This document shows, one piece after another, positions 10,444 to 64,000 of a stretch of DNA of 64,000 nucleotides. The notes below the pieces were generated by a model. It was not told where the DNA came from. It worked only from the letters and a program-made list of their open reading frames with translations, and ran no database searches. The translations under genes and the position numbers were made by a program. Position 1 is the first letter of the stretch. Each line of letters starts with the position of its first letter. The DNA is from an uncultured Gammaproteobacteria bacterium (GTDB lineage Bacteria; Patescibacteriota; Patescibacteriia; UBA9570; XYC2-FULL-38-9), in contig CAZBLE010000003.1 in NCBI GenBank assembly GCA_964492735.1, forward strand, positions 6,279 to 70,278. The letters run 5' to 3'.

Positions 10444-10473
10444 ATGAAGCTGACTGCAGTAATCGGTTGTCGA

Positions 10474-10692
10474 CTAAATAAACAGTCGTCCGAGAGAAAC
10501 ACCAATAAACAGAATTGCAGTAATGATTGTAAAAATAAAAATACCCTTTTCTGGACCTCGACGTGTAGACACTACACCACCACTACCACCAAATGCACTA
10601 CCAAGACCGTCACCTTTTGCTTGTAAGAGAATGCTCACCACGAGTAGTGTTGCGAGAATAATTTGCGATACATCAAAAATTGTTTGAACCAT
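10474..10692 (-). CDS. secG: preprotein translocase subunit SecG
   Basis: 72 aa with two TM helices and a central Gly-rich GDGLGSAFGGSGG loop, the characteristic SecG architecture. Confidence 0.75.
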   Translation of the reverse strand: MVQTIFDVSQIILATLLVVSILLQAKGDGLGSAFGGSGGVVSTRRGPEKGIFIFTIITAILFIGVSLGRLFI

Positions 10693-10758
10693 AGAGCTAG
10701 ACCAGGATATCAGATGGGTGGTTTTCTGTCAAAGTAAAATCAATTATATTGGCTAATA

Positions 10759-13700
10759 TTACTGTAATAATGAATTTACATCTGCCACAACTGGGCTACG
10801 TTCATCTACATTTGCAAACTGCTTTGTTGAACGAAAAACCGGAATATCTGTTGTTTTTCCATTCACTACAAAACGAAAATACAATGTATGGTCTAAATTT
10901 GCCGACACACTGACCGGAATAAATTCAAACTGCGCGGAGGCAGTTTTGTAAGACATTATCAGTTGGAAATCATTGAAGTCGTTATCAGTACCGTCTTCGA
11001 ATTTTAATAACGTCTGACCACGTGCAAGTGAGACAGATTGGGCCTTTGGACTGTACTGAGCACTGCTTCGTTCATTACCAAAACGGATAAAGCTTTGAAA
11101 GCGTGCATCTTGAAGAGAAAATTGTACTTTTAATTTTTTGTTTTTTGTTGTGCGGTTACGAGCCGTTACATTATAGACATCTTTTCCTCCTGTCGCTTTA
11201 CTTGCTACGGTTAATGTCCGAGCAGATTTTTTTGCCGGGATATCTTTTACGACATACGAAACCGTAATCGTTCGCGTTGCACCTACTGCAAGTGGTTTAT
11301 TTTTTAATACATTATTCCAGACAAGTGTTCCTTTCTTTTTTGTTGAATTTGGCTTCACTGTACCTTTTTTAAACTTCAAGGTTGCCTTTGGATATGTTTG
11401 AGTAAGTTTTAATTTCGTTAAACTTGCTTCACCCGTATTTTTAATCTTCACTGTATATTTCACTGTCTTGCCTTTTGCAACAGTCGGATATTTTCCTTTT
11501 TTCGCTTTTGGTGAGATGAGCTTTTGCTGAATAGTATATGACGATGTCACTGATGCACGAGTAAATGTCACACTTGTTGCAGAACTTACGTTCCCTGCCG
11601 CATCCATTGCGACAATGCTAATTGCCTGAGACCCTACAGCAAGCGCACTTGTCGCTGTACAATTCCATGTACCATCGCTGCCAACGGTCGTTGTGCACAG
11701 TGTATTACTATTATTGTCACGAACAATGACAGTCGCAAGAGCCTCGGCCGTTCCTTGGAAGGTTGGTGTTTTAGTTTGAACAACGCCTGTGCTTGTTACA
11801 ATAGACGCATTACCACCGTTACTCGCAACAATCACCGGTGCATTTGGTGCAGTTGTGTCAGATGATGGAGTCGGACTTGGTGTAGTAGCAACAATCACAT
11901 AGCCAGCTTGTGTTGCTGGTGTCGCGACATTTCCAAGCGCATCTTGTGCAGCAATTTTCAAATTTCCTGAACTGGTAATTGCAATTGTACAATCTACTTG
12001 TGTACCAGATGTTTGTGTACAAGAAATTGCATCATGGCCAGCAGTTGTTGCAGCATCAACAGTCACTGCGCTACTACTAATCGCTCGAGCGTCTGTGACA
12101 CGAATTGTTGTATTTGTAATTGTTGTTGTCGCAGATAGTGTTGGAGCTGTAATTGCAATCACTGGTGCGGTTGCATCAATCGTAAATGAAGCAACGTTTA
12201 ATACATTCGATGCGTTACCTGCAGCGTCAGTGACTGTAATCGTACAATTTGTGTGTGCGCCATCAGCAAGCTCTGCAAATGTGATTGTGTTTGAGCCAAC
12301 CGAAGCTGACACCGCACTTGATGCGCAATCCCCACCATATGAAAGACTTCCTGCTTCATTGGTTGTGAATGTATAGTTCGGTGTGTTATCTGTGGTTGGA
12401 GTTGAAACAGGCGTCACGACTAAGATTGTTGGCGCTACTGCATCAATCGTAAATGACGCAACGTTTAATGTATTTGAAACATTTCCAATTGTATCAGTTA
12501 CAGTGATTGTACAATTTGTATGCGCGCCGTCAGCGAGTGTATTAAAAGTAATGGTATTTGAACCTGAACTTGCAGATGTTGTTGCGGATGAACAATCACC
12601 ACCATAGGAAATCGTTCCCGCTTCATTGGTTGTGAATGTATAACTTGGTGTGTTATCTGTGGTGGGAGTTGAAACAGGTGTTACTTCTGAGATTGTTGGT
12701 GCAGTTGCATCAACCGTAAATGAAGCGACATTTAACGTATTTGATGCATTGCCTGCAGCGTCGGTTACAGTGATTGTACAGTTTGTATGTGCACCATCAG
12801 AAAGTGTATTAAAAGTAATGGTATTTGAACCTGAATTTGCAGATGTTGTTGCGGATGAACAATCACCACCATAGGAAATCGTTCCTGCTTCGTTGGTTGT
12901 GAATGTATAACTTGGTGTGTTATCTGTGGTTGGAGTTGAAACAGGCGTTACTTCTGAGATTGTCGGCGCTCCTGAATCAATGACAATATTTTTATTCGCC
13001 GCAAGCGTTGTTCCAGGAGTAAAATCAGTCAATGTATTTAACGCATGATCTTTAATCGTTCCGGAAATAGTTGCATCTAAGTCAGCAGTTGTGTCCCCTT
13101 CTTGTACAATATAATTACATGTTCCTGTTCGAGAATCGGTAATCGTAAATGTACATGTTTGATCAGTCGTTCCTGTTTCGAGCGTCACGGTCACACTCCC
13201 AGTTGAAGTCACTGGCTCAGAAAATGTCACATCAATATCAATCGAATCCCCAGGGCTATATGAACCATTTGCCGCATCTGAAGAAATAGAATCGATAACA
13301 GGGGTCGCACCAGTCTCAACAACTAGTGTAACTGCGAGACCACTCATCGCATTTCTCAATTGTGTTATCCCTACAATTGAAGGGGGTGTTGTTGTTGAAT
13401 TGCCTAATGTATCAATGATTGAATATGAAAGAATGCTCGCAATTTGTAAATCTGAATCATCTTCTCCAGAAGCTGAATCTCCCACTACATAGTTTGCTGC
13501 AATAATATTTCCACCATATGCCGGGTTGTAAGCAAGATCCACTTCAACACCATTCGTTAAACGGACAGTCATGATTGAGGCTGAATTCAACGTTCTTGCA
13601 AATTGCGCCCCAATGAGAATTGTTTGACCAGTTGTGTAGGTTCCGCTTGTAGTAAGTGTCGCAAACTGTGTCAAAGCTGGCGCACTGGTTGCAATAGTAA

Positions 13701-15993: not shown

Positions 15994-16003
15994 TTCGTCT
16001 ATT

Positions 16004-16037
16004 ATTATACCGTATCTTGTATTATACCGTATCTTGG
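16004..16037 (-). promoter_or_regulatory. tandem direct repeat (2 x 17 bp ATTATACCGTATCTTGK), each unit carrying a TATAAT box on the minus strand, immediately upstream of the giant surface-protein start
   Basis: Minus strand reads CCAAGATACGGTATAAT ACAAGATACGGTATAAT AATAGACGAA ATG. A -35-like TTGCAA lies 17 nt upstream of the distal TATAAT. No Shine-Dalgarno sequence before the ATG. Confidence 0.6.
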
Positions 16038-16252
16038 CACTTTTTGCAAGTGTGGCTAATGCTAGGGAAATGATGAGTGTGTAACAGGAGTTGGTGAGTG
16101 TCGTTGTCTTTTAAATAGAGAAAACCTGGCGCATGAGATCAGAGATGTGATCATGCATGCGTCAGGGAGAGGCCAGCTGCTGTGTCGTTGTGATCTGTGT
16201 GTAGATCAGCGAACGATGTGAGCTGCCTCTCAACCGGTGTTGCTCAGCTGTT

Positions 16253-18274
16253 TTACGGCTGAGCGAACAGCGGGTGCGGGCCGTCGGCGATGGCCCAGTT
16301 GTGTGTGGTCTGGCTACCGTCGGGCCAAACGACCTCAACTTGCGCCGAAGCCTGGTTGCTGCCCAGGTCGAGGCAGAAGTCGGAGTCGAGGCCGTTCCGG
16401 TAGCCGGTCGGCTGCTCCCGGAGGACCTCAACGCCGCCCACGGTGACAGTCACGCGCGACAACGAGCCGTTTCGCGGGACAGTCACGCCGTTGCCGGCCA
16501 AGCTTCCGCAAAAGCGGTTTCCGGTTGCGATGCTGTCGTTGCGGAGGTACTTGGGATTCCCCTCATACACTCCGCTGACAACGCAGTCAGCGTCGCCGTC
16601 GTTGTCGAAGTCCGCGCAGACCATCTGGCGATGGTTGCCGCGCGTGGCGTCGGCGCCCATCGTGTCGTTGATGCCGATGCGAGACGGCGGGTAGGGGTAC
16701 GTCATCCCCATCTGGCCGCCCGTGCCGCGAACCGCCATATGCGCCGTGATCGGCTGGCCGTTGGTCGGGCACTCCGCAGCGCCAGGGCAGGTGCCGTTGT
16801 ACCCCCGGCCGTCGTGCCCCCACGGGGTGAGGAACGACGTCGCGACTTGCCCGTCCGGCAAGTAGCGCGTCGTCTCGCCGCCCATTTCCCAAGGGATGGG
16901 GCGCACGGGCGGACCCGGCTCGAAAACGCACGCTGCGCCGAGGCCCTGGCCGCCAGCCAGGGACCAGTCGGCCAACTGCGGGACGTTCCCGGTGTTGTCG
17001 AACCAGAGGTCCGACCCTGGATCGCGGCCGTAAGCCGAGAAACAGAGGTCGTTGCTGCTGGTCGACACCAACAGGTCGGGCCAGTTGTCGCCGTCGAGAC
17101 TGGTAAAGAGGCCGCCCATCGGGCGGCTCCAAGCCAATTGACTCCAACCAGAAGTCCCGTCCTGCTCCACGAAGCGTGGCCAGCCGTCGGTGGTCGTGCC
17201 GTCCCGGACGAAAACGCCGGTCGGCGATCCGCCCATGGGCGATCCCATCGCCCAGATGGTCAGCGACCCGTCGGGGCCGGGCAAGGCCAGCCAGGTGTAG
17301 AGATCGCTTCTCGCGCCAGGGAGGCGCTCGAAGTTTTGACTCGCAACCCAGCCTCCGCCCGGCTGCTGGAAGAACGTCCACGGCAGACTGTCTCGCGACA
17401 TCAAGAGAATGTCGAGCAGCCCATTTCCGTCGATGTCCCAGACGCCCGGGATCGGGCGGATCGTGAACCCGGCACCGCGCCAGGCGGCGTCAAAGGAAGG
17501 GTCAGGCGCCCAGCGACCGTCCGGCTGACGCTCAAAAACGAGCCCAAGCGGCGAAGCCGCCAGGATCTCGACCTGCCCGTCGCCGTCGAGGTCGACGAGG
17601 TCAAGGTAGTTGACCTCGGTCGCCGTTGAGATCCGCGGGTCGAACCCACGCTCGAGGAGACCTGCAGCGACGAAGTCGCCAATCCCGTCCCGAGGGACGG
17701 TCCAGGTTCCCGTCGCCGGGTCGAGCGTGCGGATCGCTCCGCGATAGCTCGACCCGACCCACCGCATGTCAAAGAGACACACCAAGGAGTCGTCCGCCGG
17801 ACCAGCCCAACCGCCCTTGGTGCAGGCGGCGGGATGCCGCTGCACCGGGCGCGGCCCAATGTCGTCCTCCAACCACCCCGCCATGGGCTGGCAGTTGGTG
17901 GGGACGTCGGGCGGACAGATGTCGCCCGCGAGCTCGGTGTAGGTCAGCTGCGGGTAGTCCCCGAGCTGCGTTCCGAGCGCGGTGGGAACGACGGGTGGGA
18001 CGACGTCGGTGTCAGCCGTGTCGACGGTGTCGGTGTCATCCGTGACCTCCCACGCGGGAGTCGTGTCGGTGCCTGCCGACTCATCCGAGTCGTCCGTGCC
18101 ACCTCCCGCCTCAGGCGGGATGGTGTCGTCGGAGGACGGGGGAATCGTGTCCGTCGTGTCGACGGTGTCGATGTCGGGGTGGGGCTGGCGGAAGCCAGCT
18201 CCCACGTCCTCGATGACCTGACAACCGGAGGTGAAAGCGAAGAAGCCAAAAACCAGAGCGCGAAGGGTCGTCAT
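16253..18274 (-). CDS. FG-GAP/VCBS-repeat lipoprotein (ASPIC/UnbV, CRTAC1-like), GC-rich foreign gene
   Basis: ~67 % GC against a ~45 % backbone. Lipobox-type signal MTTLRALVFGFFAFTSGC. Repeated DxDGDG loops (VDLDGDGQVE, WDIDGNGLLD, CADFDNDGDADC). GGAG Shine-Dalgarno sits 6 nt before the ATG at 18274. The longest ORF extends to 18346. Confidence 0.75.
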   Translation of the reverse strand: MTTLRALVFGFFAFTSGCQVIEDVGAGFRQPHPDIDTVDTTDTIPPSSDDTIPPEAGGGTDDSDESAGTDTTPAWEVTDDTDTVDTADTDVVPPVVPTALGTQLGDYPQLTYTELAGDICPPDVPTNCQPMAGWLEDDIGPRPVQRHPAACTKGGWAGPADDSLVCLFDMRWVGSSYRGAIRTLDPATGTWTVPRDGIGDFVAAGLLERGFDPRISTATEVNYLDLVDLDGDGQVEILAASPLGLVFERQPDGRWAPDPSFDAAWRGAGFTIRPIPGVWDIDGNGLLDILLMSRDSLPWTFFQQPGGGWVASQNFERLPGARSDLYTWLALPGPDGSLTIWAMGSPMGGSPTGVFVRDGTTTDGWPRFVEQDGTSGWSQLAWSRPMGGLFTSLDGDNWPDLLVSTSSNDLCFSAYGRDPGSDLWFDNTGNVPQLADWSLAGGQGLGAACVFEPGPPVRPIPWEMGGETTRYLPDGQVATSFLTPWGHDGRGYNGTCPGAAECPTNGQPITAHMAVRGTGGQMGMTYPYPPSRIGINDTMGADATRGNHRQMVCADFDNDGDADCVVSGVYEGNPKYLRNDSIATGNRFCGSLAGNGVTVPRNGSLSRVTVTVGGVEVLREQPTGYRNGLDSDFCLDLGSNQASAQVEVVWPDGSQTTHNWAIADGPHPLFAQP

Positions 18275-18714
18275 GGGAACTCCAGAGCTCGCACGCAGCG
18301 AGTTCATGGGTGGAACGAGACTGCAAACGGCACTATGCCATCGCAATCATTCTCTCTATCATCCAAATACCCCACGACAAAAATGCAATTACTGCATCGC
18401 TGTCCTGAGGCCTCTGGATGATAGAGACGAAACTAGATGAAAAATTCAATTTTCAAAGAATGCAAAAAATTCCAAGTTGGAACTTGCACTACTTACTATA
18501 TCCCATATTTTGACAAAAAAGTCAAGCATTTTTTGGCTAACCTCTGTTGATATTTTCTTAATACGAAAAAGGCCAGAAATACGCAGATGCACGGGGAGCT
18601 GGTCGCTCGCAGTTGTACAAAAGCCTATTCCTGGCGTGCCGAGAGACTCTCGGTAACTTACCTCAATCAGCCTGACTGACATTTCCGCCGTTATCAGCCG
18701 GGCCGATTTTTTTC

Positions 18715-18987
18715 TCACATGAGCAAGGGGTCGGTCAAAGCCTGCCCACCCCACTCGCAACGCCAAGGGCGTGCAAACGGGTCGAAGAAGATCCTCTGCC
18801 GATACTCCCAGGCCCGGAGCTCGAGCTCCTGGATGCTCTCCGGGTCTCGAAGTCCCTTGCAGGCCTCCGTGAACTCCTCCGCGAGCTCAGCAAGCTCCGC
18901 CTCCTGAGCTTCACTGGGCGCGACAGCCCAGTAGAGAGTCGAGTACGCTGCAATGAAGATCCCACTCAACAAAAGAAACTCCCGCAC
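18715..18987 (-). CDS. small GC-rich secreted protein (90 aa), hypothetical
   Basis: GTG start preceded by GGAGG. N-terminal signal-like MREFLLLSGIFIAAYSTLYWAVAPSEA. GC-rich like the adjacent FG-GAP gene. Confidence 0.35.
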   Translation of the reverse strand: MREFLLLSGIFIAAYSTLYWAVAPSEAQEAELAELAEEFTEACKGLRDPESIQELELRAWEYRQRIFFDPFARPWRCEWGGQALTDPLLM

Positions 18988-19121
18988 GAGACCTCCAGCT
19001 CATGAGCGTAAGTGCTCATTTGTTGACTGATTATACAATTTTTCGCCCAAAAGTCAAGAAAATAAGCTTGTTATTCGGTCATTTTTCGGCTTTTAAAAAA
19101 CTGTGCTATACTCCACAAACT

Positions 19122-21329
19122 ATGCAAAAAAAATCTCCAAAAAAATCATCACCCTCCCCTACTCAAACTGCTGGAACAATTGGCACGCACACGGCAGCCA
19201 CTGAAATCCTCAAAACCCTCAACGACCAACAATCTCTCGCCGTCCAAACCACCACTGGACCCGTCCTCATTCTCGCTGGTGCAGGTAGTGGAAAAACAAA
19301 AACCCTTGTCCATCGAATCGCCTACCTCATTGCACACGAAAACGTGAAGCCGTGGAGCATTCTCGCTGTCACCTTTACCAACAAGGCCGCGCGCAACATG
19401 AAAGAGCGCATGGAAACACTTATTGGCCAAATGGAGCATCCGCCAGTGATGGGCACATTTCACTCAGTCTGCTCCCGCATTCTCCGTCGTGAAATTGAAG
19501 CCATTGGGTTTGAAAAAAACTTCACGATTTACGATTCAGACGACCAACTCACGCTGGTAAAAAAAATCATGAAGGACTTGGGGTATGACACAAAACAAGT
19601 CGCGCCATCGCTTGTTCATTGGCAGATCAGTAAAGCCAAAAATGAATTAAAAACACCAGCGCAAGTCGAAGCAGAAACTGGAGATGCCCTCTCAGAAGTG
19701 GTTGCGCGAGTGTATCCAAAATATCAATCAGAGTTGCAAGCACACAACGCTCTCGATTTTGATGACATGATCATGAAAACAGTTGAGCTACTCAAGCAAT
19801 ATCCGGAAGTGCTGAAAAAATATCAAACATTGTGGGAATATATTTTAGTCGATGAGTACCAAGATACCAATCAAGCACAATATCAGCTCGTAACAATGCT
19901 GGCAGCTGCACACAAAAATATTTGCGTGGTTGGAGATGATGCGCAATCGATTTATTCATGGCGACAAGCGGATATTCGCAACATTCTGGAATTTGAAAAA
20001 GACTACCCAGATGCGACGGAAATTTTCTTAGAACAAAACTATCGTTCAACGCAAACGATTCTTGATGCGAGTAATGCCATTATTGCGAATAACCCAAAAC
20101 AGAAAAAGAAAAAATTGTGGACGGAAAATCCAGGCGGTGATTCGATTATTGTTCGTGAACTTGAAGATGGTGATGCAGAAGGAAAGTATATTGTTGAAGT
20201 GATTGCTGGAAAAATTAAAGAACACGCAGGTAATGGAACAGACGGTTCAGACGATGAAGTGACGTATGACGATGAATACGCTCAACCTGATCCAGATGAA
20301 ATTGATCAATCCCCGATCAACGCCGGAGAAAGTATTTTGGATCGGATCATGGGTAGTAAAATGTTTAACCAACATAAAGAAACGGAAGAGCTGTCTGCGT
20401 ATATTAAAGCCAACAAAGCGTCGATCGATTTTGCGAAATACGTTGTACTGTATCGGACAAATGCGCAGTCTCGCCCTTTGGAAGAAGCGTTTTTGAAATA
20501 TGGGATTCCCTACCAACTCGTTGGCGGCTTGCGGTTTTATGATCGACGAGAAATTCGAGATCTGCTGGCCTATATGAAAGTCTTGTTCAACCCGAGCGAT
20601 TGGGTGGCAATGGAGCGGATTGTAAATGTACCGGCTCGCGGGATTGGCGACCGGACCTGGTTTAAAATTGAACAATTTGCCCGACAGCGAAATTTCACGG
20701 TGATTGACGCGGCGAAAAATGACATTCCAGATGTGCAAGCAGCTCGCATTGGAAAGTTTTATCAGTTTGCTGGTGAACTTGAGCATATTCGCAACCAAAT
20801 GGAAGCGCTGAATCCAACAGAAATCTTGGAGCTACTCACAAAAGAAATTTCGTTTAAGGAGCATTTAGAAAAAACGTCTGAGACAAAAGAGGAAGCAGAG
20901 ATGCGCTGGGAAAATGTGCAAGAATTAAAAAATGTCACGCAGAAATTTATGTCGCTCCGTGGCACTGAAGGCTTACTCGCCTTTTTAGAAGATGTTGCAC
21001 TTGTGTCAGACCAAGATTCGATTGATGAAAATGAAAAAGCCGTGAAGCTGATGACTGTTCATGCGGCAAAGGGCTTGGAATTCCCAGTTGTGTTTGTCAC
21101 CGGAATGGAAGAGGGATTGTTTCCACATTCTCGTTCACTCGTTGACCCACAAGAGATGGAAGAAGAGCGTCGCTTGTGTTATGTCGCACTCACGCGCGCT
21201 GAACATCAAGCCTATTTCTTGTTCGCTTCAAAACGCATGAAATATGGTGAGATGCATGTGAATCCTCCATCGCGTTTTCTTGATGAAATTCCAAAAGAAT
21301 TGGTTGTCTGGAAGTCGCCGTGGAATTAA
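19122..21329 (+). CDS. pcrA: ATP-dependent DNA helicase, UvrD/PcrA/Rep family
   Basis: Walker A AGAGSGKT and UvrD helicase motifs (TFTNKAA, VDEYQDTN). The start was moved to the ATG at 19122 (MQKKSPKK), preceded by an extended -10 TGcTATACT. The longest ORF starts at 19002. Confidence 0.9.
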   Translation: MQKKSPKKSSPSPTQTAGTIGTHTAATEILKTLNDQQSLAVQTTTGPVLILAGAGSGKTKTLVHRIAYLIAHENVKPWSILAVTFTNKAARNMKERMETLIGQMEHPPVMGTFHSVCSRILRREIEAIGFEKNFTIYDSDDQLTLVKKIMKDLGYDTKQVAPSLVHWQISKAKNELKTPAQVEAETGDALSEVVARVYPKYQSELQAHNALDFDDMIMKTVELLKQYPEVLKKYQTLWEYILVDEYQDTNQAQYQLVTMLAAAHKNICVVGDDAQSIYSWRQADIRNILEFEKDYPDATEIFLEQNYRSTQTILDASNAIIANNPKQKKKKLWTENPGGDSIIVRELEDGDAEGKYIVEVIAGKIKEHAGNGTDGSDDEVTYDDEYAQPDPDEIDQSPINAGESILDRIMGSKMFNQHKETEELSAYIKANKASIDFAKYVVLYRTNAQSRPLEEAFLKYGIPYQLVGGLRFYDRREIRDLLAYMKVLFNPSDWVAMERIVNVPARGIGDRTWFKIEQFARQRNFTVIDAAKNDIPDVQAARIGKFYQFAGELEHIRNQMEALNPTEILELLTKEISFKEHLEKTSETKEEAEMRWENVQELKNVTQKFMSLRGTEGLLAFLEDVALVSDQDSIDENEKAVKLMTVHAAKGLEFPVVFVTGMEEGLFPHSRSLVDPQEMEEERRLCYVALTRAEHQAYFLFASKRMKYGEMHVNPPSRFLDEIPKELVVWKSPWN

Positions 21330-22107: not shown

Positions 22108-24174
22108 TTACTCTTGAGTGCCTTTTGCGAGGCGGAGCATTTGACGATATTCAGCTGGCGTAATCTGTGTTGCCCTCTGCATTTGCGCATTCGCTGTTCC
22201 ATCCGTTGATAGAGCAGCTTGTAAATCAATACCCATCGCTTCAATTAATCGCGGTGTTAAACGATGTGACAAAAATCCGGCCCCACGATGACGCACTTGA
22301 ACATCACCATACTCGTCATCTGCTGCTGCGGGTTTTAATGAAAATGATAATGGACCAATTTCAATTTCAGCATGCAATCCTTTTGAAACCATGTCATCTA
22401 GCGCATCTTCAATTGCTGAAAGTTGTCGCGCGGGGTTGAGTGTCTCAACTTTCGCACGAGGCTGCTCGATTGCTACTCGCTCATCAATAACCTCATCTTC
22501 ATCTTCCGTTTTTTTTGCAACGAGCTGCTCACTATTTTGCTCCTCCGGATTTTTTGGAGAGCGCTCTGTTGTTGCTGCTGGTGCTGGTGGAACATCGGGA
22601 ACGAGAGCTTGAGTAGTACGCACATCCGGCGCTACTTGTGCGCTTGGCTCAGCTGTCTGTGACGCTCCTTCAACAGCGGGCGCTTCTGGTGTTGTTGATT
22701 TTTTTGGTGCTTCCATTGCTTGGTGCACAGCAACTCCTTCTGAAGAGGTAAAATGCATTACACTCGCCAGCTCAGTTGGCGACAATACATGACTTGCATC
22801 TCCTGTATAAAACTGGACATTTTCAATAGTTCCGTCTGCAGCTTCGGTTACAATCATTCCAAGCTCTCCTCCTTTTGCGTCAACAAAGACATTAGCAAGC
22901 GTTCTTGTTTCTGCACCGATTGTCACTGGTAATTGCAATGCTGCCTTAATAGCAGCTATTTCATATCCTGCTCCAATTATTGCTTGAGACACACCTTCAC
23001 CTTTCTGAATCCATACCTTACTGACATCTGGCGTCGCTTCTTGCTCTTGCTGAACTGCTTCAACGCTTTCATCCGCAATAGTAGTTTCTGGAATAACTGG
23101 AGCACTCTCTGCAGGCATGACCTCTGACAGAGTTATTTCTGACTGAACTATTTGTGTGCTGGCTGTATTCTCAACTGCTTGTTGTTGTACTGCGGCTTCA
23201 ACGCGCCCTTGATCTTGATCACCTTGAAATGCTGCCGCTAACCCAAGTGCCATACCAAAACGACGCAATGCTTTTCCAAACCAACTTGTTTGTTTTTTTG
23301 ACTGCTCTGGCATTCGCAGTGGTGGTTTTTTATCAGAAGGTGCGGGCGCATTTTTTGCTGCTTCACGTGCAGCAACCTGAGCCGCAACATCGGCTTGTGC
23401 AATTTTTAAATTTTCTCGTGGAGTGCGACCATCTCGTGGACCGGAAGTTTCTGTTACTTGTTCAAGTGGTTGAGTTGGCTCATCTTCAAGATTATAAGGA
23501 TCATTACTTGATATGCGCGTTGGCTCATCATCGTCAGCCAAAGACGATGCATCTAGCGCATCATCTTTCGGCAAATCAGGAGCTACTGGCAACTCATCAA
23601 AATAATCTGAGACATTACTAAAACCTGTATCAACGGGAGCTTTTTCAGGAGTGCGTGACTCTTTCATTGGCTCATCATCAGCATCTAAATCTGCAAGCCA
23701 CTCCGTCCATTGCTGTTCAGCTTGTTTGGCTTTTTGGCCAACATCAACAAAACCTTCTGTGGTTTGATCGAATCCAGCGTCATTCAGGTGATCTTCTGGG
23801 TCAAAACCCTTTTGAGCCTCTCTCTTTTTTCGATCTTTTTCAGTACTTACTGCTATATCTCTTGCCTTTTGATCTAACTCAGGATCTTGCCGAAGCTCTT
23901 CTAACATACTGCGCCAGTCAGCAACACTAAAGACATCCACCTTTGGCGCTTTATCAGAAAATGATGGTGATTCCTCTGCTTTTACTGCAGCACGTAAATC
24001 ATCAATAGAGTGCATTGCTGTTTCGTCATATTGCGCCTGCACAACTGGTACGCCTGCTTCTTGTGCAACATCTAAACGCTCCTGCTCAGCTTCAAAATCA
24101 CGCCGTTTTTGACGAAGCGCATCTGTATCTATGAGGCCTCTTTTTTTTGACCTTGGAGGGTTATCGTATGACAT
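22108..24174 (-). CDS. acidic, low-complexity (intrinsically disordered) protein, paralog of 24233..25714
   Basis: 688 aa, rich in E, D, Q, A and P. Shares an ADW motif and a TSWFGKALRRFGMALGLAAA amphipathic/hydrophobic segment with the neighbouring gene. Confidence 0.6.
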   Translation of the reverse strand: MSYDNPPRSKKRGLIDTDALRQKRRDFEAEQERLDVAQEAGVPVVQAQYDETAMHSIDDLRAAVKAEESPSFSDKAPKVDVFSVADWRSMLEELRQDPELDQKARDIAVSTEKDRKKREAQKGFDPEDHLNDAGFDQTTEGFVDVGQKAKQAEQQWTEWLADLDADDEPMKESRTPEKAPVDTGFSNVSDYFDELPVAPDLPKDDALDASSLADDDEPTRISSNDPYNLEDEPTQPLEQVTETSGPRDGRTPRENLKIAQADVAAQVAAREAAKNAPAPSDKKPPLRMPEQSKKQTSWFGKALRRFGMALGLAAAFQGDQDQGRVEAAVQQQAVENTASTQIVQSEITLSEVMPAESAPVIPETTIADESVEAVQQEQEATPDVSKVWIQKGEGVSQAIIGAGYEIAAIKAALQLPVTIGAETRTLANVFVDAKGGELGMIVTEAADGTIENVQFYTGDASHVLSPTELASVMHFTSSEGVAVHQAMEAPKKSTTPEAPAVEGASQTAEPSAQVAPDVRTTQALVPDVPPAPAATTERSPKNPEEQNSEQLVAKKTEDEDEVIDERVAIEQPRAKVETLNPARQLSAIEDALDDMVSKGLHAEIEIGPLSFSLKPAAADDEYGDVQVRHRGAGFLSHRLTPRLIEAMGIDLQAALSTDGTANAQMQRATQITPAEYRQMLRLAKGTQE

Positions 24175-24232: not shown

Positions 24233-25714
24233 TTAGCGCGTATAATGTGGTTGTCGGCTCAAATCTTTTCCAAGTGTTGATACGTCTTCAGGAGTCAGTG
24301 AGCGAAAATCTTTTTCTCCTGGAAATCGTGCCACAATATCACCACTCGCGGATTGGCGTAATTCTAAACGCTTCGTTGGACTTAAGCGGATAAATACTTT
24401 TGATGAATCAAGACTCTCAAATAAACTTTTGACATAATCAATTTGTTTTTCAGGAGAAAGCGTACTCTTACTCATTTCAGCATTAAGTTGTTTGGCTACA
24501 TCAGCTGGTGCGACTGGCGCTTCTGCAACGGGTGTCACTGTTTTTGGTGCTTCCACATCAACGCTTGCGGGAGCAACGGGAACTGGAGGCATTGCCGGCT
24601 CTATCTGCATAGGTCGCACATCTTCTTCAGTAGCAACTACTGTCTGTTGCGCGGGTTGCTTTGAATCATTTCTGTAACGAACTGCAACTGGTAAATTATC
24701 TGGCGGCGGCGCAACAACGCGCTGAGATGGCACGCGTTCAGATGAACGGGGCTGTTGGACAGGGGTGGTAGGCACAGTAGGTGTAGCAACCTCCACTCGT
24801 GGAACAACAATAGTTGGCCGATCAGGCGCTGGTGCAGCTTGCGGTTTCTCAACCACATAAGTACTTGTTGCTTCTTGTGGGGTTTGGTTGGTTGGCACAG
24901 CCAGCGCTGCAACAAGACCAAGTCTGCGGCCCCAGCGCGTTAATGTATCAAGTGCGGCTTGTGCCTTTTTTCCAAACCAACTCGTAGCCGGCGGCTCTGG
25001 AACAACAGTAATTGTTTCTGTTCTTGGAGCAGCAGTGCGAGGGGTGCGTGTAAGATTTCTAATATCGCTAATACTTCCTGGTACAATTGGCTCGAGGGAT
25101 GCGGGTGCTGCATCGGCCTGTTGTTTTCGTGAAGACGTACGCTCAACAATTGGTGCTTGAGGGGGATGAGATACTTCATCTGAACCTGCTACATCTTCAG
25201 CAAAATTACCCATTGCAGAAGCATCCCAAAAAGGTTTATCTGTAGGCAAATTCCGTTCTAATGAGAATGGTGTATCTGCTGTCGCGGGATCATCTGTATA
25301 AAAAGAAGGTCGAAACAACTCTTCATCCTCAGACTCGCCTTCTAATGAGACCGGACCTGTATCTACATCATCTGGAATAGGCTGAATTGGATCTGGAAGA
25401 TCATTTATTAGATCCACTCGATCTCCAACTTGAGCTGCTCGCCCTGCAGCCTCTTGTCCAGCATACACTCGCGCAGCTACTTGCTCTGCCCGACGCGGAT
25501 CTTGAACAGCACCTCGAGCACGATCCAACATTGCTGTGTCATCATGCGTATCACTTGGTGTTGTCGGTACTTGTGCTTTACCGTCAACGACTGTTGGCTG
25601 GTTCCACACTTCATCTAAACGACCCCAATCTGCATGCGTTAAATCAGCTGTATCTGGTACCTTTTCTTGCGCAGGCTTTACCGCTTGCGCTCGCGGTCGT
25701 TCTGGATTACTCAT
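24233..25714 (-). CDS. acidic Pro/Ala-rich low-complexity protein, paralog of 22108..24174
   Basis: 493 aa. N-terminal ADW motif and TSWFGKKAQAALDTLTRWGRRLGLVAALAVP segment aligned with the neighbouring paralog. Confidence 0.6.
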   Translation of the reverse strand: MSNPERPRAQAVKPAQEKVPDTADLTHADWGRLDEVWNQPTVVDGKAQVPTTPSDTHDDTAMLDRARGAVQDPRRAEQVAARVYAGQEAAGRAAQVGDRVDLINDLPDPIQPIPDDVDTGPVSLEGESEDEELFRPSFYTDDPATADTPFSLERNLPTDKPFWDASAMGNFAEDVAGSDEVSHPPQAPIVERTSSRKQQADAAPASLEPIVPGSISDIRNLTRTPRTAAPRTETITVVPEPPATSWFGKKAQAALDTLTRWGRRLGLVAALAVPTNQTPQEATSTYVVEKPQAAPAPDRPTIVVPRVEVATPTVPTTPVQQPRSSERVPSQRVVAPPPDNLPVAVRYRNDSKQPAQQTVVATEEDVRPMQIEPAMPPVPVAPASVDVEAPKTVTPVAEAPVAPADVAKQLNAEMSKSTLSPEKQIDYVKSLFESLDSSKVFIRLSPTKRLELRQSASGDIVARFPGEKDFRSLTPEDVSTLGKDLSRQPHYTR

Positions 25715-29131: not shown

Positions 29132-29137
29132 AAAAAG

Positions 29138-31901: not shown

Positions 31902-32142
31902 AGGATATGTGTGCAGCGCACATGACTGATAACGACAAGTTGCGCAGAATACGTCAAAGGGAGTTTATGAGAGGCGTTATCCGTTACAAAATACATTTTT
32001 TTTGAGTGATTGTAATAACCAAAATGTGCCGCGTGATGCATTCCTTGGGAGAATATGCAAAACGCGACACCGAAGGCGGCCTCAAACAGCTGAACGATGT
32101 GATGTCGTTGTGACATCGCTCAGGTGTGAGGCAAAGGCCTTC

Positions 32143-33129
32143 TTAGAGCGGGGTCAATGCCGCGGGCACGGACCAGGGCCCGTTGCGGGTCGCCTGGGTG
32201 CTACCCCACAGGGTGGGGAGACCGGAGGCCGGGTCCACGTGGAACCCAATGGCCCACGGGGTGGTCGTGTAGTCGTACTCGAGGACGTCACCGGAACCCC
32301 CGGGCTCCCAGCAGTATGGCGTGTAGTGCCGGGTATGCTGGAAGTCTCCCAGATCGTAGACATCGACCCAGCAGATCTGGGCGCCTGCCGCCCCGGACTG
32401 GAGTGAAATGTCAGGAACTCCCCACGGGCGGCGGATCTCAAGACCCGTGCTGCGGTCGTAGGTGTAGCTGTGGGGGTACGGCGCCGTCACCATGACCGTG
32501 ACGGAAAAGTCAGTCATCACAACACGCGCCGCCGGGCTTGATGCGCCGGTGACGGGGTTGAACGTGACCGGACCAGGGCCCGTTCCGGGCTCATGGCAGT
32601 CGATCGTGATGTTTCCCGGCGCACCAGGCTGCTTAGCTGCGATGCAGAGCTCGTCGCCCATCGCGTCTGCCGCGTAGGTGACGCCAGGGGCGTTGGCTTC
32701 GATCGCCCAGCCGGAGCCCGGGCCGGTTCCAGGGATCCAGGTCCGCACGACGCCGCGCCCGGTCTCGAGCGCGGTAATGAAGCCGCCCCCGAGCGCAAAG
32801 GACTCAAGCGTGACGCCAACCGGCGCCGAGATCGTAGACCAGGTTCCATTGCTGGCGCGGCAGCGGATGGCGAGGCCATCCGTCTGCAGGCCGCAGAGGA
32901 AGTTACCCTCCACAGAGACCTCGTTCAGGGTAGGCGCCCCTGCGGGCACCGTCCAAGCCGGGGTCGCCGAGGTGGACAACAGGGGCTGCACCGCAGGCCC
33001 AGTCTGCAGCACCCAGGTGCCGGACAGGGGCTCGAAGATCGCCGGAGACTCCGCCCTCGCGGGTGAACCTCCGAACAGCAGAGCCGCGGCGAAAAACGCC
33101 GCAGCCACCAAAACCGAGATGTGCTTCAT
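32143..33129 (-). CDS. GC-rich secreted Gly/Pro/Thr-rich protein, hypothetical (foreign gene)
   Basis: 328 aa and ~66 % GC. Signal peptide MKHISVLVAAAFFAAALLFGGSPARA. No recognised domain. Confidence 0.6.
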   Translation of the reverse strand: MKHISVLVAAAFFAAALLFGGSPARAESPAIFEPLSGTWVLQTGPAVQPLLSTSATPAWTVPAGAPTLNEVSVEGNFLCGLQTDGLAIRCRASNGTWSTISAPVGVTLESFALGGGFITALETGRGVVRTWIPGTGPGSGWAIEANAPGVTYAADAMGDELCIAAKQPGAPGNITIDCHEPGTGPGPVTFNPVTGASSPAARVVMTDFSVTVMVTAPYPHSYTYDRSTGLEIRRPWGVPDISLQSGAAGAQICWVDVYDLGDFQHTRHYTPYCWEPGGSGDVLEYDYTTTPWAIGFHVDPASGLPTLWGSTQATRNGPWSVPAALTPL

Positions 33130-33365
33130 CTTGACCTCAATGTCTTTTATTTAGGCTGGCAGACTCACCAGTAAGACTTTTTTCAAAACGTATCAATGAA
33201 CAAAAAAGCACCACAATGGTGCATAAAACGGACAAAAATGTAGCTCAAAATAGGTAAAATGTCAAGCAATGGCGCATTATCCTTATAATAGAAAAAATGG
33301 ACGAATCCTGCATAGGCATTGTCAGTCACCGTTAGTCGCAGATTAGGCTGTACTTGCCCTTTACG

Positions 33366-40751: not shown

Positions 40752-40774
40752 GTACCGTTTTAATAGACAAAGGG

Positions 40775-40891
40775 TCAGAACCATCCGAAGAAGGCCCCAA
40801 CCACGCACAGCGCCGTAGCGCTGAGGAGGGCGGCCATGATGGTCGCCCAAAAAATCGTCGCAACCCCGAGTGGGTTGATGTTTCCACTCAT
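40775..40891 (-). CDS. 38-aa hydrophobic small membrane peptide in a GC-rich micro-islet
   Basis: Perfect SD GGAGGTGAGT before the ATG. Translation MSGNINPLGVATIFWATIMAALLSATALCVVGAFFGWF. ~61 % GC with G/C-biased third positions. Not in the supplied ORF track, which has a >=60-aa cut-off. Confidence 0.35.
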   Translation of the reverse strand: MSGNINPLGVATIFWATIMAALLSATALCVVGAFFGWF

Positions 40892-40967
40892 ACTCACCTC
40901 CTGCATCGACCCTAACACAGGCAATTCTATGATACAATAGCGCTATTACAAACGACCTACAGAACAT

Positions 40968-55112: not shown

Positions 55113-55292
55113 ATAGAATAAAAAACAAACTGCACTATTTTTATTATTATAGCAAAAAATATTGAGTTTGTCCAGGTGCGCACGTATAACCTAAACAAGT
55201 AAGTCAACGCCTGTTATTCTCTACCATAATTGTTATTGTTGCATAACAACTCTGGAAGGGACTGATCAGCACGCACGCGGCGACATTCTGAT

Positions 55293-55334
55293 CAGTGGCT
55301 CTTGAACGTACGGCCGTGGCGTACACCAAGAGCC
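55293..55334. repeat. nested perfect hairpin (GGCTCTTG...CAAGAGCC enclosing GTACG...CGTAC) next to two CTGATCAG palindromes at the edge of a GC-rich islet
   Basis: GGCTCTTG-aac-GTACG-gccgtgg-CGTAC-ac-CAAGAGCC. CTGATCAG occurs at 55263 and 55289. Immediately 3' of the small GC-rich gene. Confidence 0.4.
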
Positions 55335-55358
55335 CTTGAGCGGAGCAGCAGCTAGATG

Positions 55359-55636
55359 CTACTGGCCGTCAACAGGCGGCTGAGGGTCCGAAGCCTTCAT
55401 CAGTGGAGGTGCACGATGGAGCCGACGCCGACCCCAGACCCCGAGGCCGAAGCCTACCAGGTAGGAGAGGGCGATCAGCAACGGGTAACCGGACTCCTCC
55501 AACCGACGGGCGAAGAGCACAAAGGCTCCCACCGCGAAGACCAGGATCAGCGTCGTGCGCCACTCCTTGTCGCGACGAAACCCGTCGACGATGAAACCGG
55601 CGATCAGCCCATACATCAACAACCCGAAAACCAACA
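55359..55636 (-). CDS. GC-rich small membrane protein (~92 aa, 3 TM), hypothetical (foreign gene)
   Basis: SD AAGGAG 11 nt upstream of the ATG at 55636, with an in-frame GTG at 55649. Perfect -35 TTGACA upstream. ~65 % GC with G/C-biased third positions. Translation MLVFGLLMYGLIAGFIVDGF... Confidence 0.5.
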
Positions 55637-55733
55637 TTGTTTTCACCACTCCTTGAGTGCCAATCTATTTGGCTACAGCCAGCCTACTGGCTCAAATCAA
55701 GGTTGTCAACAAAGATTCAATACTCTCAAATGA

Positions 55734-63419: not shown

Positions 63420-63611
63420 TTATTGGCTTTGTGTATAAATATGCGGTGGATTTTTTACTGTTTTTCGCAGCTTGTACACAGGGTTATGCACAGCTGGGCA
63501 TAAGTCGTGTGGTGTATCGCATTTCAGTGGGCAGAATGTGTGGATTCTGCACAGTGGAACGCGATGGAGACGGCGAAACGTGCGTACAGGGCTGATGCCT
63601 GTGTGTTGCAT
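63420..63611 (-). CDS. 63-aa Cys/His-rich small ORF with strong SD (possible small metal-binding protein)
   Basis: GGAGGcggcaaacATG. Translation contains LCRIHTFCPLKCDTPHDLCP. Lies in the GC-enriched segment next to a truncated GC-rich gene. Could be spurious. Confidence 0.25.
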   Translation of the reverse strand: MQHTGISPVRTFRRLHRVPLCRIHTFCPLKCDTPHDLCPAVHNPVYKLRKTVKNPPHIYTQSQ

Positions 63612-63659
63612 GTTTGCCGCCTCCGAGTGGGTGGGGTCTGTTGAGAAGTTGTGTGCGAC

Positions 63660-64000
63660 CTACTTAGCCGCACGCTCCTCCTGCTGGAGCGCCAGCCGCT
63701 TGTACGCCAAAAGCTCCGTGGCCTCAGCAACCTTGGCCGCGTACCCGAAAGTGTTCGGGTAGTAGCCGCGGACCGAGATCCGACCGTCGGGGGTTACGAC
63801 ACAGAGGTTCATGTCGACGATGAACCCAACGGGCTCACCAACGAACTGACGCGACGTGTACGGTGACGTCCGCTTCTTCGGCAGAGCGCCCTTCTCAACC
63901 TTGTCCATGACGCGGAGGTTAGTCGGGTGCTGCTGCGCGTAGCGGCTGAAGACGCGCTGCAGGTCGTGCAGATCGTGGACACCAGAGTTCCTCCCCGACT
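63660..64000 (-). CDS. GC-rich hypothetical protein, 5'-truncated by the window edge
   Basis: The open frame runs to the window end without a stop (…SGRNSGVHDLHDLQRVFSRYAQQHPTNLRVMDKVEKGALPKK…EERAAK*). ~65 % GC. Confidence 0.4.
   Translation of the reverse strand, partial: SGRNSGVHDLHDLQRVFSRYAQQHPTNLRVMDKVEKGALPKKRTSPYTSRQFVGEPVGFIVDMNLCVVTPDGRISVRGYYPNTFGYAAKVAEATELLAYKRLALQQEERAAK

What the first reader, a model, noticed from the sequence alone, without database searches (positions are those of the whole stretch)
16140..19000. Largest of at least five GC-rich foreign islets: FG-GAP/ASPIC-type lipoprotein plus small secreted protein
A ~2.9-kb block at ~65-68 % GC sits between AT-richer native genes, the giant surface protein on one side and pcrA on the other. 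It encodes a 673-aa lipoprotein with DxDGDG FG-GAP/VCBS loops and a 90-aa signal-peptide protein. Third codon positions are strongly G/C, and overlapping ORFs appear in all frames, as is typical of high-GC DNA. Despite this, the gene sits behind an AT-rich upstream region carrying a TTGACT element at 18520..18525, so it looks integrated and expressed rather than a misassembly. The same signature recurs at 32100..33135, 40770..40900, 55255..55650 and 63420..64000, always on exported or membrane proteins. This points to repeated acquisition of surface-protein genes from a high-GC donor. For a reduced-genome, surface-attached lineage, a high-GC host or partner such as an actinobacterium would be an obvious candidate.
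Basis: partly seen in the sequence, partly recalled or inferred. Interest (0 to 1): 0.8.

Follow-up and report, generated by a model that had tools for sequence, protein, structure and literature searches.

The report
Foreign GC-rich gene islets in CPR bacterium
A small-genome, Kerfeldbacteria-like bacterium carries several one-gene patches of GC-rich DNA, mostly encoding secreted proteins, that came from high-GC bacteria and are gained, lost and swapped between close relatives; this is ordinary gene transfer, but it may point to the unknown partner organism.

Summary
The window is 45% GC. The region 16151-18350 is 66% GC and 18601-19000 is 59%, so it is two islets split by an AT-rich spacer. 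Third-codon-position GC (GC3) is 0.75-0.83, against 0.27-0.48 in native genes.

The 673-aa product is a lipoprotein with an FG-GAP beta-propeller. Its model best matches CRTAC1/ASPIC.

Misassembly is excluded. Two independently assembled congeners carry a GC-rich gene at the same site between pcrA and the giant surface protein.

Foreign origin is supported:
- Only six full-length relatives exist among 1.84 billion representatives, and the two with readable context lie on uniformly 65% and 72% GC contigs.
- The congeners' copies are polyphyletic. One is sister to a high-GC-contig gene (bootstrap 99%).
- Islets vary between close relatives. The 328-aa islet is absent where UvrA is 96% identical and replaced by an unrelated GC-rich gene in another congener.

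Corrections: 40770-40900 is a conserved 38-aa ORF, and 63501-64000 looks GAPDH-like rather than exported. The donor is unidentified, and nothing points to actinobacteria.

One puzzle remains. Diverged alleles sit between the same highly conserved non-coding flanks and keep high GC3.

Verdict: a new member of a known kind, of moderate interest.

The parts
16151..18350 (.). GC-rich islet 1. This is the foreign DNA segment. It coincides with the segment that is strongly diverged from the congener L001, roughly 16184-18352.
   Evidence: It is 66.4% GC against a 45% background. Nucleotide identity to L001 is 35-73% per 100 nt inside the segment and 93-98% in the adjacent non-coding sequence.
16253..18274 (-). 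Gene for a 673-aa lipoprotein. It has an acidic D/T-rich linker, an FG-GAP beta-propeller and a C-terminal beta-sandwich, giving a CRTAC1/ASPIC-like architecture.
   Evidence: GC3 is 0.83. Pfam FG-GAP_3 scores 2.1e-09 and FG-GAP 1.9e-06. The AlphaFold model has pTM 0.73 and is all-beta. The best PDB match is murine CRTAC1, 9etn_A, at E=1.3e-15.
16130..16183 (-). Conserved palindromic 3' flank just outside the diverged segment.
   Evidence: A 54-nt stretch is 92.6% identical to L001 (alignment). It lies in a structured region with fold z=-3.9.
18353..18427 (-). Long conserved hairpin at the 5' edge of islet 1, within the likely 5' UTR of the lipoprotein gene.
   Evidence: The arms are 35 nt. 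The RNA fold of 18275-18530(-) has z=-9.0. In L001 the stem base is identical and the apical part differs but can still pair by eye; that was not folded. The motif occurs only at this locus.
18495..18525 (-). Promoter-like site for the lipoprotein gene: TTGACT, a 19-nt spacer, then TATAGT.
   Evidence: Read directly from the sequence. It lies in the stretch that is 95-98% identical to L001. The -35 region is also shared with L003. The consensus scan did not flag it because the spacer exceeds 18 nt.
18566..18635 (-). Terminator-like hairpin followed by a U run, downstream of the 90-aa gene.
   Evidence: Seen in the fold of 18520-18720(-). It is conserved in L001.
18715..18987 (-). Islet 2: gene for a 90-aa protein with an N-terminal hydrophobic segment (signal peptide or membrane anchor).
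   Evidence: GC3 is 0.75. L001 has an ortholog at 49% amino-acid identity with GC3 0.64. L003 lacks it. Pfam gave no hit.
19030..19057 (-). Sigma-70-type promoter (TTGACT, 16 nt, TATAAT) upstream of the 90-aa gene.
   Evidence: It matches 11 of 12 consensus positions. The surrounding 100 nt is 93% identical to L001.
18508..18526 (.). Left copy of a 19-nt direct repeat (TTTTGACAAAAAAGTCAAG). The repeat brackets the roughly 530-bp islet-2 insertion and carries the -35 box.
   Evidence: It is repeat family D5. L003 has a single copy and no 90-aa gene.
19040..19058 (.). Right copy of the same direct repeat (TTTTCGCCCAAAAGTCAAG).
31956..33286 (.). Islet 3, defined as the segment inserted relative to the empty site in congener L109.
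   Evidence: Local alignments place the homology breakpoints at about window 31955 / L109 1688 and window 33287 / L109 1724.
32143..33129 (-). Gene for a 328-aa secreted protein with no detectable relatives outside this lineage. It has a signal peptide ending ARA-ES.
   Evidence: GC3 is 0.81. No homologue was found among 5.8 billion proteins. The N-terminal 70 aa are present on L110, at 67% identity and 68% GC. No Pfam or NCBIfam hit. The structure model is unusable, with pLDDT 39.
55359..55649 (-). Islet 4: a 96-aa predicted membrane protein just downstream of rpoC.
   Evidence: The stretch is 60.5% GC and the ORF has GC3 0.76. No family hit. No relatives were available for comparison.
63501..64000 (-). 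Islet 5, cut off by the window end. It is the 3' part of a GC-rich gene with a GAPDH-like C-terminus, so its product is probably cytoplasmic.
   Evidence: It is 60% GC. The frame is open to the window end. NCBIfam GAPDH models score 3e-4 and PDB GAPDH chains 3e-3, aligned in register with the protein's C-terminus.
40775..40891 (-). A doubtful member: a 38-aa hydrophobic ORF after groEL.
   Evidence: The sequence is. GC3 is about 0.74, counted by hand. Its position is conserved in L109 and L107. It falls below the GC threshold.

Best explanation
The block is two single-gene insertions of foreign, GC-rich DNA in the genome of a Kerfeldbacteria-like CPR/Patescibacteria bacterium. They lie in the intergenic region between pcrA and a giant surface-protein gene. 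The genome contains several more insertions of the same kind.

Shown:
- The genes come from a family that lives in high-GC bacteria.
- They were captured more than once in this genus.
- Such islets are gained, lost and replaced between close relatives at intergenic sites flanked by core genes. No integrase, tRNA or transposase is present.

Inferred:
- DNA taken up from a high-GC neighbour or partner integrates by illegitimate recombination.
- It is retained when it lands behind, or brings along, a working AT-rich sigma-70-type promoter.
- Alleles then spread between strains by homologous recombination in the conserved flanks.
- The 673-aa product is exported and lipid-anchored. It displays a calcium-binding FG-GAP propeller with an ASPIC-like domain on the cell surface, most plausibly for adhesion to a partner cell or polymer. 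The 90-aa protein is a small membrane-anchored or secreted companion.
- The high GC3 means residence has been short relative to how quickly foreign codon usage drifts to match the host genome.
For: Taxon. The best named UvrA and PcrA relatives are Candidatus Kerfeldbacteria.

Composition.
- Islet GC3 is 0.75-0.83 against 0.27-0.48 in native genes.
- Codon choice matches the high-GC contigs, with A-ending codons at 0-14% against 42-62% for Ala, Pro, Thr and Ser in native genes.
- The tetranucleotide signature is closer to the high-GC contig L057 (r=0.54-0.70) than to native DNA (0.28-0.42).

Real junctions. L001 and L003 carry a GC-rich lipoprotein gene in the same place. L110 contains native/islet junctions at both of its ends.

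High-GC home of the family. Only six full-length relatives exist among 1.84 billion representatives. P0003 lies on a 2.9-kb contig that is 65% GC throughout. P0006 lies on a 6.4-kb contig that is 72% GC throughout.

Polyphyly. The L003 gene lacks the C-terminal domain. It scores 454 bits against P0006 and 133 bits against the window's gene. Neighbour-joining bootstraps are: (L003, P0006) 99%, (window, L001) 99.5%, and all three copies from this lineage together 0 of 200.

Turnover.
- The 328-aa islet is present in L110 (UvrA 98% identical) and absent in L109 (96%). In L107 (87%) an unrelated 194-aa GC-rich protein with a MopE motif takes its place.
- L107 and L110 each have islets that the window lacks.
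- More distant Kerfeldbacteria loci show no islets.

Age. S<->W differences between the window and L001 alleles are 90% saturated around an equilibrium of 0.78 GC. Divergence of that size under the native bias would predict a GC3 of about 0.5.

Expression signals.

Fold.

Precedent. Horizontal gene transfer and genomic islands covering up to 13% of genome length have been reported in Patescibacteria (PMC12455944).
Against: - No donor gene closer than about 50% (type B) or about 33% (type A) amino-acid identity was found in 15 billion proteins. 'Recent' transfer from a sampled organism is therefore not demonstrated.
- The 328-aa protein has no homologue at all.
- The window and L001 alleles occupy the same site with the same edges, between non-coding flanks that are 92-98% identical. 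Independent illegitimate insertions would not be expected to produce this.
- With the slowest native clock (UvrA) and an initial GC3 of 0.95 or more, a single old acquisition predicts GC3 of 0.74-0.77. That is close to L001's 0.73.
- The high-GC context is known for only two family members.
- The adhesin role is inferred from fold and localisation signals only.
Confidence: 0.68

Rival explanations
1. The lipoprotein gene and the other shared islets were acquired once, in an ancestor, and then diverged in place. Their GC-rich codon usage is actively maintained. Possible causes are selection on codons or mRNA, or GC-biased gene conversion at recombination-prone surface-protein loci.
For: - The window and L001 share the same site, orientation and edges, with conserved flanks.
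- Synonymous divergence of the lipoprotein gene (p4 0.59) resembles that of its left-hand neighbours (0.59-0.66).
- The window/L110 pair for the 328-aa islet has K4 of 0.56 against 0.36-0.45 for the flanking genes.
- Native surface proteins diverge just as fast, at 31-41% amino-acid identity.
Against: - It cannot explain a different subfamily at the same site in L003.
- It cannot explain the presence/absence polymorphism.
- Equally fast-evolving native surface genes have GC3 of 0.27, so no general force acts on such loci.
- No mechanism is known that would keep A-ending codons near zero in a few genes only.
Confidence: 0.17
2. The locus works as a cassette-exchange site. Conserved hairpin-forming non-coding elements at both edges guide site-specific replacement of the GC-rich ORF from an external pool, in the manner of an integron but without a recognisable integrase.
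For: - The diverged, GC-rich segment is bounded on both sides by conserved structured elements (16130-16183 and 18353-18427).
- A different family member occupies the same site in L003.
- A 19-nt direct repeat brackets islet 2.
Against: - No recombinase gene lies in the window near the islets.
- The hairpin motif is unique to this locus and absent from the other islets.
- The donor contigs L056 and L057 share no flank sequence.
- The other insertion junctions show no common motif.
- The hairpins fit ordinary UTR or terminator roles.
Confidence: 0.07
3. These are native genes whose GC richness simply reflects an amino-acid composition rich in Gly, Ala, Pro and Arg.
For: The products are rich in Gly, Ala, Arg and Pro (fraction 0.30-0.37). 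Two native surface proteins have similar values.
Against: - The largest shift is at synonymous third positions (0.75-0.83 against 0.27-0.48).
- Native proteins with the same amino-acid bias have GC3 of 0.27.
- The distribution among congeners is patchy.
Confidence: 0.03
4. The contig is a chimeric assembly that joins this bacterium's DNA to DNA from a high-GC organism.
For: Logan contigs L108 and L110 begin or end at or inside islets. This could reflect breaks in the assembly graph.
Against: - The same junctions were recovered in four independent assemblies of different samples.
- Each islet is a complete gene unit nested between conserved native promoters and terminators.
- The contig breaks are better explained by strain-level variation at the islets.
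Confidence: 0.02

Closest known systems
Horizontally acquired genes and genomic islands in Patescibacteria/CPR (PMC12455944)
   Same: Both involve compositionally deviant, patchily distributed genes in streamlined CPR genomes. Donors are often unrecovered, and transfer is used as a clue to partners or neighbours.
   Different: Here the units are single-gene islets of 0.4-2.2 kb without mobility genes. They are strongly GC-rich in a 45% GC genome. They sit between core genes, with replacement at the same site among congeners. That study found most transfers to be between Patescibacteria.
CRTAC1 / ASPIC-UnbV family of FG-GAP beta-propeller proteins (PDB 9etn)
   Same: The FG-GAP repeats have Dx[DN]xDG calcium-type loops. 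The protein has an all-beta propeller followed by a C-terminal beta domain. CRTAC1 is the best structural match (E=1.3e-15).
   Different: Sequence identity is only 14%. The Pfam UnbV_ASPIC model did not score. The protein has a bacterial lipoprotein leader and an acidic D/T-rich linker. TM-scores are modest (0.50 and 0.60) and the model has medium confidence.
Host-to-epibiont gene transfer used to link Patescibacteria to hosts (bioRxiv 10.64898/2026.09.16.751625)
   Same: The idea is the same: genes shared between an epibiont and a higher-GC partner mark a physical association. That paper also discusses contrasting codon preferences between partner and epibiont.
   Different: That work relies on matches above 99% nucleotide identity. 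Here no near-identical donor sequence exists in the databases searched.
Horizontal-transfer hotspots between core genes, and the model by which acquired genes drift to the host's base composition (own knowledge: Oliveira et al. 2017; Lawrence and Ochman 1997)
   Same: Different accessory genes occupy the same core-gene interval in related genomes. GC3 serves as a clock for how long foreign DNA has been resident.
   Different: Homologous but saturated alleles with unchanged GC3 lie between nearly identical non-coding flanks. The simple model does not predict this.
Integron gene cassettes
   Same: A promoter is followed by exchangeable single-ORF units bounded by hairpin-forming elements.
   Different: There is no integrase and no shared attC-like motif. 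The hairpin is unique to one locus.

Membership tests
FG-GAP / CRTAC1-ASPIC-like beta-propeller proteins | FG-GAP repeats detectable by profile | tested here: met
   Pfam FG-GAP_3 scores 38.3 bits against a cut-off of 26.9. FG-GAP scores 28.1 against 22.1.
FG-GAP / CRTAC1-ASPIC-like beta-propeller proteins | Calcium-type Dx[DN]xDG loops | tested here: met
   DLDGDG, DIDGNG and DNDGDADC are read directly from the translation. They are conserved in relatives.
FG-GAP / CRTAC1-ASPIC-like beta-propeller proteins | Beta-propeller fold resembling solved family members | tested here: met
   The model has pTM 0.73 and mean pLDDT 64. The top Foldseek PDB hit is CRTAC1, 9etn_A, at E=1.3e-15 with TM-scores 0.50 and 0.60. 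Lectin and integrin-alpha propellers follow.
FG-GAP / CRTAC1-ASPIC-like beta-propeller proteins | C-terminal UnbV_ASPIC domain | tested here: inconclusive
   Pfam gave no UnbV_ASPIC hit at E<=0.01. However, profile positions 557-690 match a C-terminal module in hundreds of proteins, and the CRTAC1 alignment spans 622 columns.
Bacterial lipoprotein | Signal peptide ending in a lipobox with an invariant Cys | tested here: inconclusive
   The window has FTSGC, which is non-canonical at position -3. Relatives have LAC, LGC and GGC. No dedicated predictor was available.
Horizontally transferred gene | Composition and codon usage deviating from the host genome | tested here: met
Horizontally transferred gene | Phylogeny incongruent with the organismal tree | tested here: met
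   The L003 copy is sister to the gene on a 72% GC contig (bootstrap 99%). The copies from this lineage are not monophyletic.
Horizontally transferred gene | Patchy presence among close relatives, with empty sites | tested here: met
   L109 has an empty site for the 328-aa islet. The window has empty sites for the L107 and L110 islets. L003 lacks the 90-aa gene.
Horizontally transferred gene | Identified donor with a near-identical sequence | tested here: not met
   The closest genes in high-GC context are 33-51% identical. Plasmid and phage collections gave no match.
Classical genomic island or integrative element | Integrase or transposase, tRNA target and flanking direct repeats | tested here: not met
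   The window has no tRNA. No recombinase domains occur in the neighbouring genes. The only repeat is the 19-nt promoter-region repeat around islet 2.
Integron cassette | Integron integrase and attC sites that recur | tested here: not met
   No integrase is present. The hairpin motif is unique to one locus.

The most novel reading that the evidence does not exclude
The islets may not be passive, decaying imports. They could be slots that are repeatedly refilled from the gene pool of a high-GC partner, or held at high GC by a force acting in place. Either way, homologous alleles that are saturated at synonymous sites stay GC-rich between nearly invariant, hairpin-bearing non-coding flanks. That would imply an unrecognised site-directed capture or replacement mechanism in a CPR bacterium. 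It would also make the surface-protein islets a readable record of the identity of its host.
Probability: 0.12. Interest if true: 0.8.

Novelty: new member of a known kind. Interest (0 to 1): 0.45.

Why it matters
The partners of most CPR/Patescibacteria lineages, Kerfeldbacteria included, are unknown. A set of recently imported surface-protein genes with a coherent high-GC signature is a concrete lead. The organism that carries the closest copies of these genes in the same samples is a candidate host or neighbour. The imported adhesin-like lipoprotein is a candidate attachment factor.

The locus also offers a small natural test of how quickly foreign DNA drifts to match the base composition of a reduced genome. 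As a phenomenon, though, gene transfer into CPR genomes is already documented.

Tried and rejected
- GC-rich RNA genes as the cause of the small islets. Rfam at gathering thresholds and a tRNA scan found nothing in the window. A permissive Rfam scan of 18200-19150 gave only chance miRNA-hairpin hits.
- Exact look-ups of the window's own proteins found no record.
- A metagenome scan with the lipoprotein alignment found nothing.
- A second metagenome scan, with PcrA, found no congeners. The best hits were 63-65% identical.
- The 328-aa protein has no homologue, and its single-sequence structure model is unusable at pLDDT 39.
- Plasmid and phage collections gave no match to the lipoprotein.
- Cluster look-ups returned no organism names for the high-GC relatives.
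- I searched for a shared sequence motif or target-site duplication at islet junctions. Apart from the 19-nt repeat around islet 2, none was found.
- I considered diversity-generating retroelements and targeted hypermutation. I dropped them because synonymous divergence in the islet matches that of neighbouring native genes.


Full report
**Observation**

The window averages 45.0% GC. Against that background, five stretches reach at least 56% GC in 200-nt windows:
- 16151-18350 (66.4%, peak 73%)
- 18601-19000 (58.8%)
- 32001-33150 (64.4%)
- 55251-55650 (60.5%)
- 63501-64000 (60.2%)

The shift is largest at third codon positions. Native genes have GC3 of 0.27-0.48. The five islet ORFs have 0.75-0.83. 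Amino-acid content alone therefore cannot be the cause.

One is a 673-aa gene (16253..18274, minus strand). The other is a 90-aa gene (18715..18987, minus strand). An AT-rich spacer separates them.

The 673-aa product has a lipobox-like leader and DxDGDG-type loops, and it passes both Pfam FG-GAP cut-offs. TTGACT is at 18525..18520 on the minus strand.

- 40770-40900 is a 38-aa hydrophobic ORF whose position is conserved in congeners.
- 63501-64000 is the 3' end of a gene with weak, in-register similarity to the GAPDH C-terminus, so its product is probably not exported.

**Organism**

The window carries rpoB, rpoC, groEL, recA, ftsK, uvrA, uvrC, pcrA and an RNase J gene. The nearest named PcrA and UvrA relatives are Candidatus Kerfeldbacteria, in the CPR/Patescibacteria.

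Three congeners were recovered:

| Genome | Loci | Similarity to the window |
|---|---|---|
| GCA_964608475.1 | L001, L109 | PcrA 98%, UvrA 96% |
| Logan contig from SRR8640622 | L110 | UvrA 98% |
| CALKUP01 / ERZ650281 | L003, L107 | PcrA 84%, UvrA 86% |

**Not an assembly artefact**

L001 has the same gene order: pcrA, the 90-aa gene, the FG-GAP gene, the giant surface protein, secG, the solute-binding protein and RNase J. Its FG-GAP gene is also GC-rich, at 63% GC and GC3 0.73, among neighbours at 0.26-0.46.

L003 also has a GC-rich lipoprotein gene (GC3 0.81) between the giant protein and pcrA. L110 contains native/islet junctions at both of its ends.

More distant Kerfeldbacteria loci have no islets near pcrA.

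**Where the gene family lives**

A word-indexed search of 5.8 billion proteins found only the L001 ortholog.

An exhaustive profile search of 1.84 billion cluster representatives found six full-length relatives. Beyond those, it found only domain-level hits to FG-GAP repeats and to a C-terminal module.

Two of the relatives could be placed on DNA:
- P0003 lies on a 2.9-kb contig that is about 65% GC throughout.
- P0006 lies on a 6.4-kb contig that is 65-78% GC throughout. Its neighbours include another FG-GAP protein.

The family has two architectures:
- Type A has the C-terminal domain. Members are the window, L001, P0003, P0004 and P0007.
- Type B lacks it. Members are L003, P0005 and P0006.

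L003's protein scores 454 bits (49-51% identity) against P0006. It scores only 133 bits (28%) against the window's protein.

In a neighbour-joining tree on 474 columns, the bootstrap values were:
- (L003, P0006): 99%
- type B clade: 100%
- (window, L001): 99.5%
- all three copies from this lineage as one group: 0 of 200

The same intergenic site therefore holds members of different subfamilies in sister genomes. At least one of them has its closest relative in high-GC DNA.

**Turnover of the other islets**

- The 328-aa islet is present in L110. Its N-terminal 70 aa are 67% identical and the stretch is 68% GC.
- It is absent in L109, where the sigma-factor gene and uvrA are about 380 bp apart.
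- In L107 an unrelated 194-aa GC-rich secreted protein with a MopE-type motif takes its place (GC3 0.70).
- Relative to L109, the inserted segment is about 31956-33286.
- L107 has a 733-bp islet at the window's empty site 29686/29701.
- L110 has an islet encoding a TSP3-repeat protein after the Wzy-like gene, which the window lacks.
- The 90-aa gene is missing in L003. In the window and L001 it lies between two copies of a 19-nt repeat that carries the -35 box. L003 has one copy.
- There is no tRNA, integrase or shared junction motif.

**Composition and age**

Islet codon usage resembles the high-GC contigs. A-ending codons are nearly absent, whereas native genes favour them. Tetranucleotide usage points the same way, weakly.

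Native genes of the window and L001/L109 are far apart at four-fold degenerate sites, with K4 of 0.58-1.58.

Within the FG-GAP gene:
- 59% of four-fold sites in conserved codons differ.
- 52 of the 119 differences are G<->C swaps.
- S<->W differences are 90% saturated around a GC frequency of 0.78.

A two-state model, clocked on native genes, predicts GC3 of 0.50-0.77 today for a single acquisition before the split. If the gene's own divergence had all occurred in place under the native bias, the prediction is about 0.51. The observed values are 0.83 and 0.73.

The simplest reading is that much of the allele divergence arose in GC-rich genomes, which means the alleles entered separately or were replaced. 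This inference is moderate rather than decisive. The slowest clock combined with an extreme starting GC3 comes close to L001's value.

Two native surface proteins with no known family (22108..24174 and 24233..25714) have GC-rich-type amino-acid usage and GC1 of 0.66-0.67, yet GC3 of 0.27. They may be old imports whose third positions have already drifted to match the host.

**The unexplained part**

The GC-rich segment coincides with the diverged segment, roughly 16184-18352. The non-coding DNA just outside is the best-conserved sequence in 16 kb of synteny:
- 18400-18599 is 95-98% identical to L001.
- 19000-19099 is 93% identical.
- A 54-nt palindromic stretch at 16130-16183 is 92.6% identical.

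A long hairpin at 18353-18427 lies in a stretch that folds far better than shuffled sequence (z=-9.0). In L001 its stem base is identical, and its apical part differs but can still pair by eye; I did not fold the L001 version.

These elements fit ordinary roles:
- a promoter, TTGACT-16-TATAAT, at 19057..19030
- a weaker TTGACT-19-TATAGT at 18525..18495
- a terminator-like hairpin at 18566-18635
- a structured 5' UTR

Identical edges around diverged alleles that have kept their high GC3 are not what independent illegitimate insertions predict. Exchange of whole alleles between strains, by homologous recombination in the flanks, would help. The higher K4 to the left of the islet (1.15-1.58) than to the right (0.58-0.74) hints at a recombination boundary there. 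I could not test maintenance in place or a site-directed mechanism any further.

**Function**

The structure model has pTM 0.73 and is all-beta. It best matches murine CRTAC1, the ASPIC protein, at E=1.3e-15. Lectin and integrin-alpha propellers follow.

Given the leader and lipobox, the protein is most likely a surface-exposed, calcium-binding adhesion or ligand-binding module. That is an inference.

**Comparison with what is known, and verdict**

Horizontal transfer and genomic islands in Patescibacteria are documented (PMC12455944). Transfer between an epibiont and its host has been used as evidence of association (bioRxiv 10.64898/2026.09.16.751625).

This finding is a clear and well-supported instance of that kind. 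It has an unusually clean compositional contrast, and allele replacement at a single site remains unexplained. The donor is unidentified. The motif content hints at myxobacteria-like organisms rather than actinobacteria, but only weakly.

Verdict: a new member of a known kind, of moderate interest.

Noticed in passing
window 18353-18600 (also 19000-19099): These non-coding stretches are 93-98% identical to L001, while four-fold sites of the flanking genes differ at 40-66% of positions. They include a 75-nt hairpin whose apical sequence differs in L001 but can still pair by eye. This suggests a strongly constrained regulatory RNA or DNA element with no Rfam match.
   Followed up: partly
window 18508-18526 and 19040-19058: A 19-nt direct repeat carrying the TTGACT -35 box brackets the 90-aa gene insertion. 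L003 has one copy. The promoter region appears to have been duplicated when that islet arrived.
   Followed up: partly
window 6370-21329 compared with L001: Synonymous divergence is about twice as high to the left of the islet (RNase J, solute-binding protein, giant protein: K4 1.15-1.58) as to the right or elsewhere (pcrA 0.74, uvrA 0.58, groEL 0.60). A recombination boundary may lie at the islet.
   Followed up: no
window 22108-24174 and 24233-25714 (minus strand): Two large proteins with no known family are only 31-41% identical between congeners. They have GC1 of 0.66-0.67 and Gly/Ala/Arg/Pro-rich composition, but GC3 of 0.27. They may be old imports whose third positions have already drifted to match the host, or simply fast-evolving surface proteins.
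   Followed up: partly
window 27527-29647 and 29800-31901 (minus strand): An ECF sigma factor (169 aa) followed by a protein of about 530 aa with no known domain occurs twice in tandem. The two sigma factors are 44% identical. This may be a duplicated sigma/anti-sigma-like module.
   Followed up: no
window 19002-19121: The longest pcrA ORF starts at 19002. The congeners and the alignment place the real start at 19122. The upstream 120 nt holds divergent promoters.
   Followed up: yes
window 40775-40891 (minus strand): A 38-aa hydrophobic ORF after groEL has GC-ending codons. Its ends and position are conserved in L109 and L107, and its middle is variable. L107 seems to carry two such ORFs in tandem.
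   Followed up: partly
window 63501-64000 (minus strand): A GC-rich open frame runs off the window end. Its C-terminus aligns weakly, but in register, with GAPDH. A foreign GAPDH-like gene lying upstream of rpoB would be an unusual arrangement.
   Followed up: partly
L108 (start) and L110 (both ends): Logan contigs stop at or inside islets. This is consistent with strain-level variation at the islets breaking the assembly graph.
   Followed up: no
window 12095-12980 (within the giant surface-protein gene): The 1744-aa surface protein contains tandem repeats of about 90 aa (the PTISEVTPVSTPTTDNTP... units). Copy number differs from L001, where this part of the alignment collapses.
   Followed up: no
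window 21508-22044 (plus strand): A lysine-rich protein with sub-threshold similarity to the histone H1-like nucleoprotein HC2 lies next to pcrA. It is 72% identical in L001 and 43% in L003.
   Followed up: no
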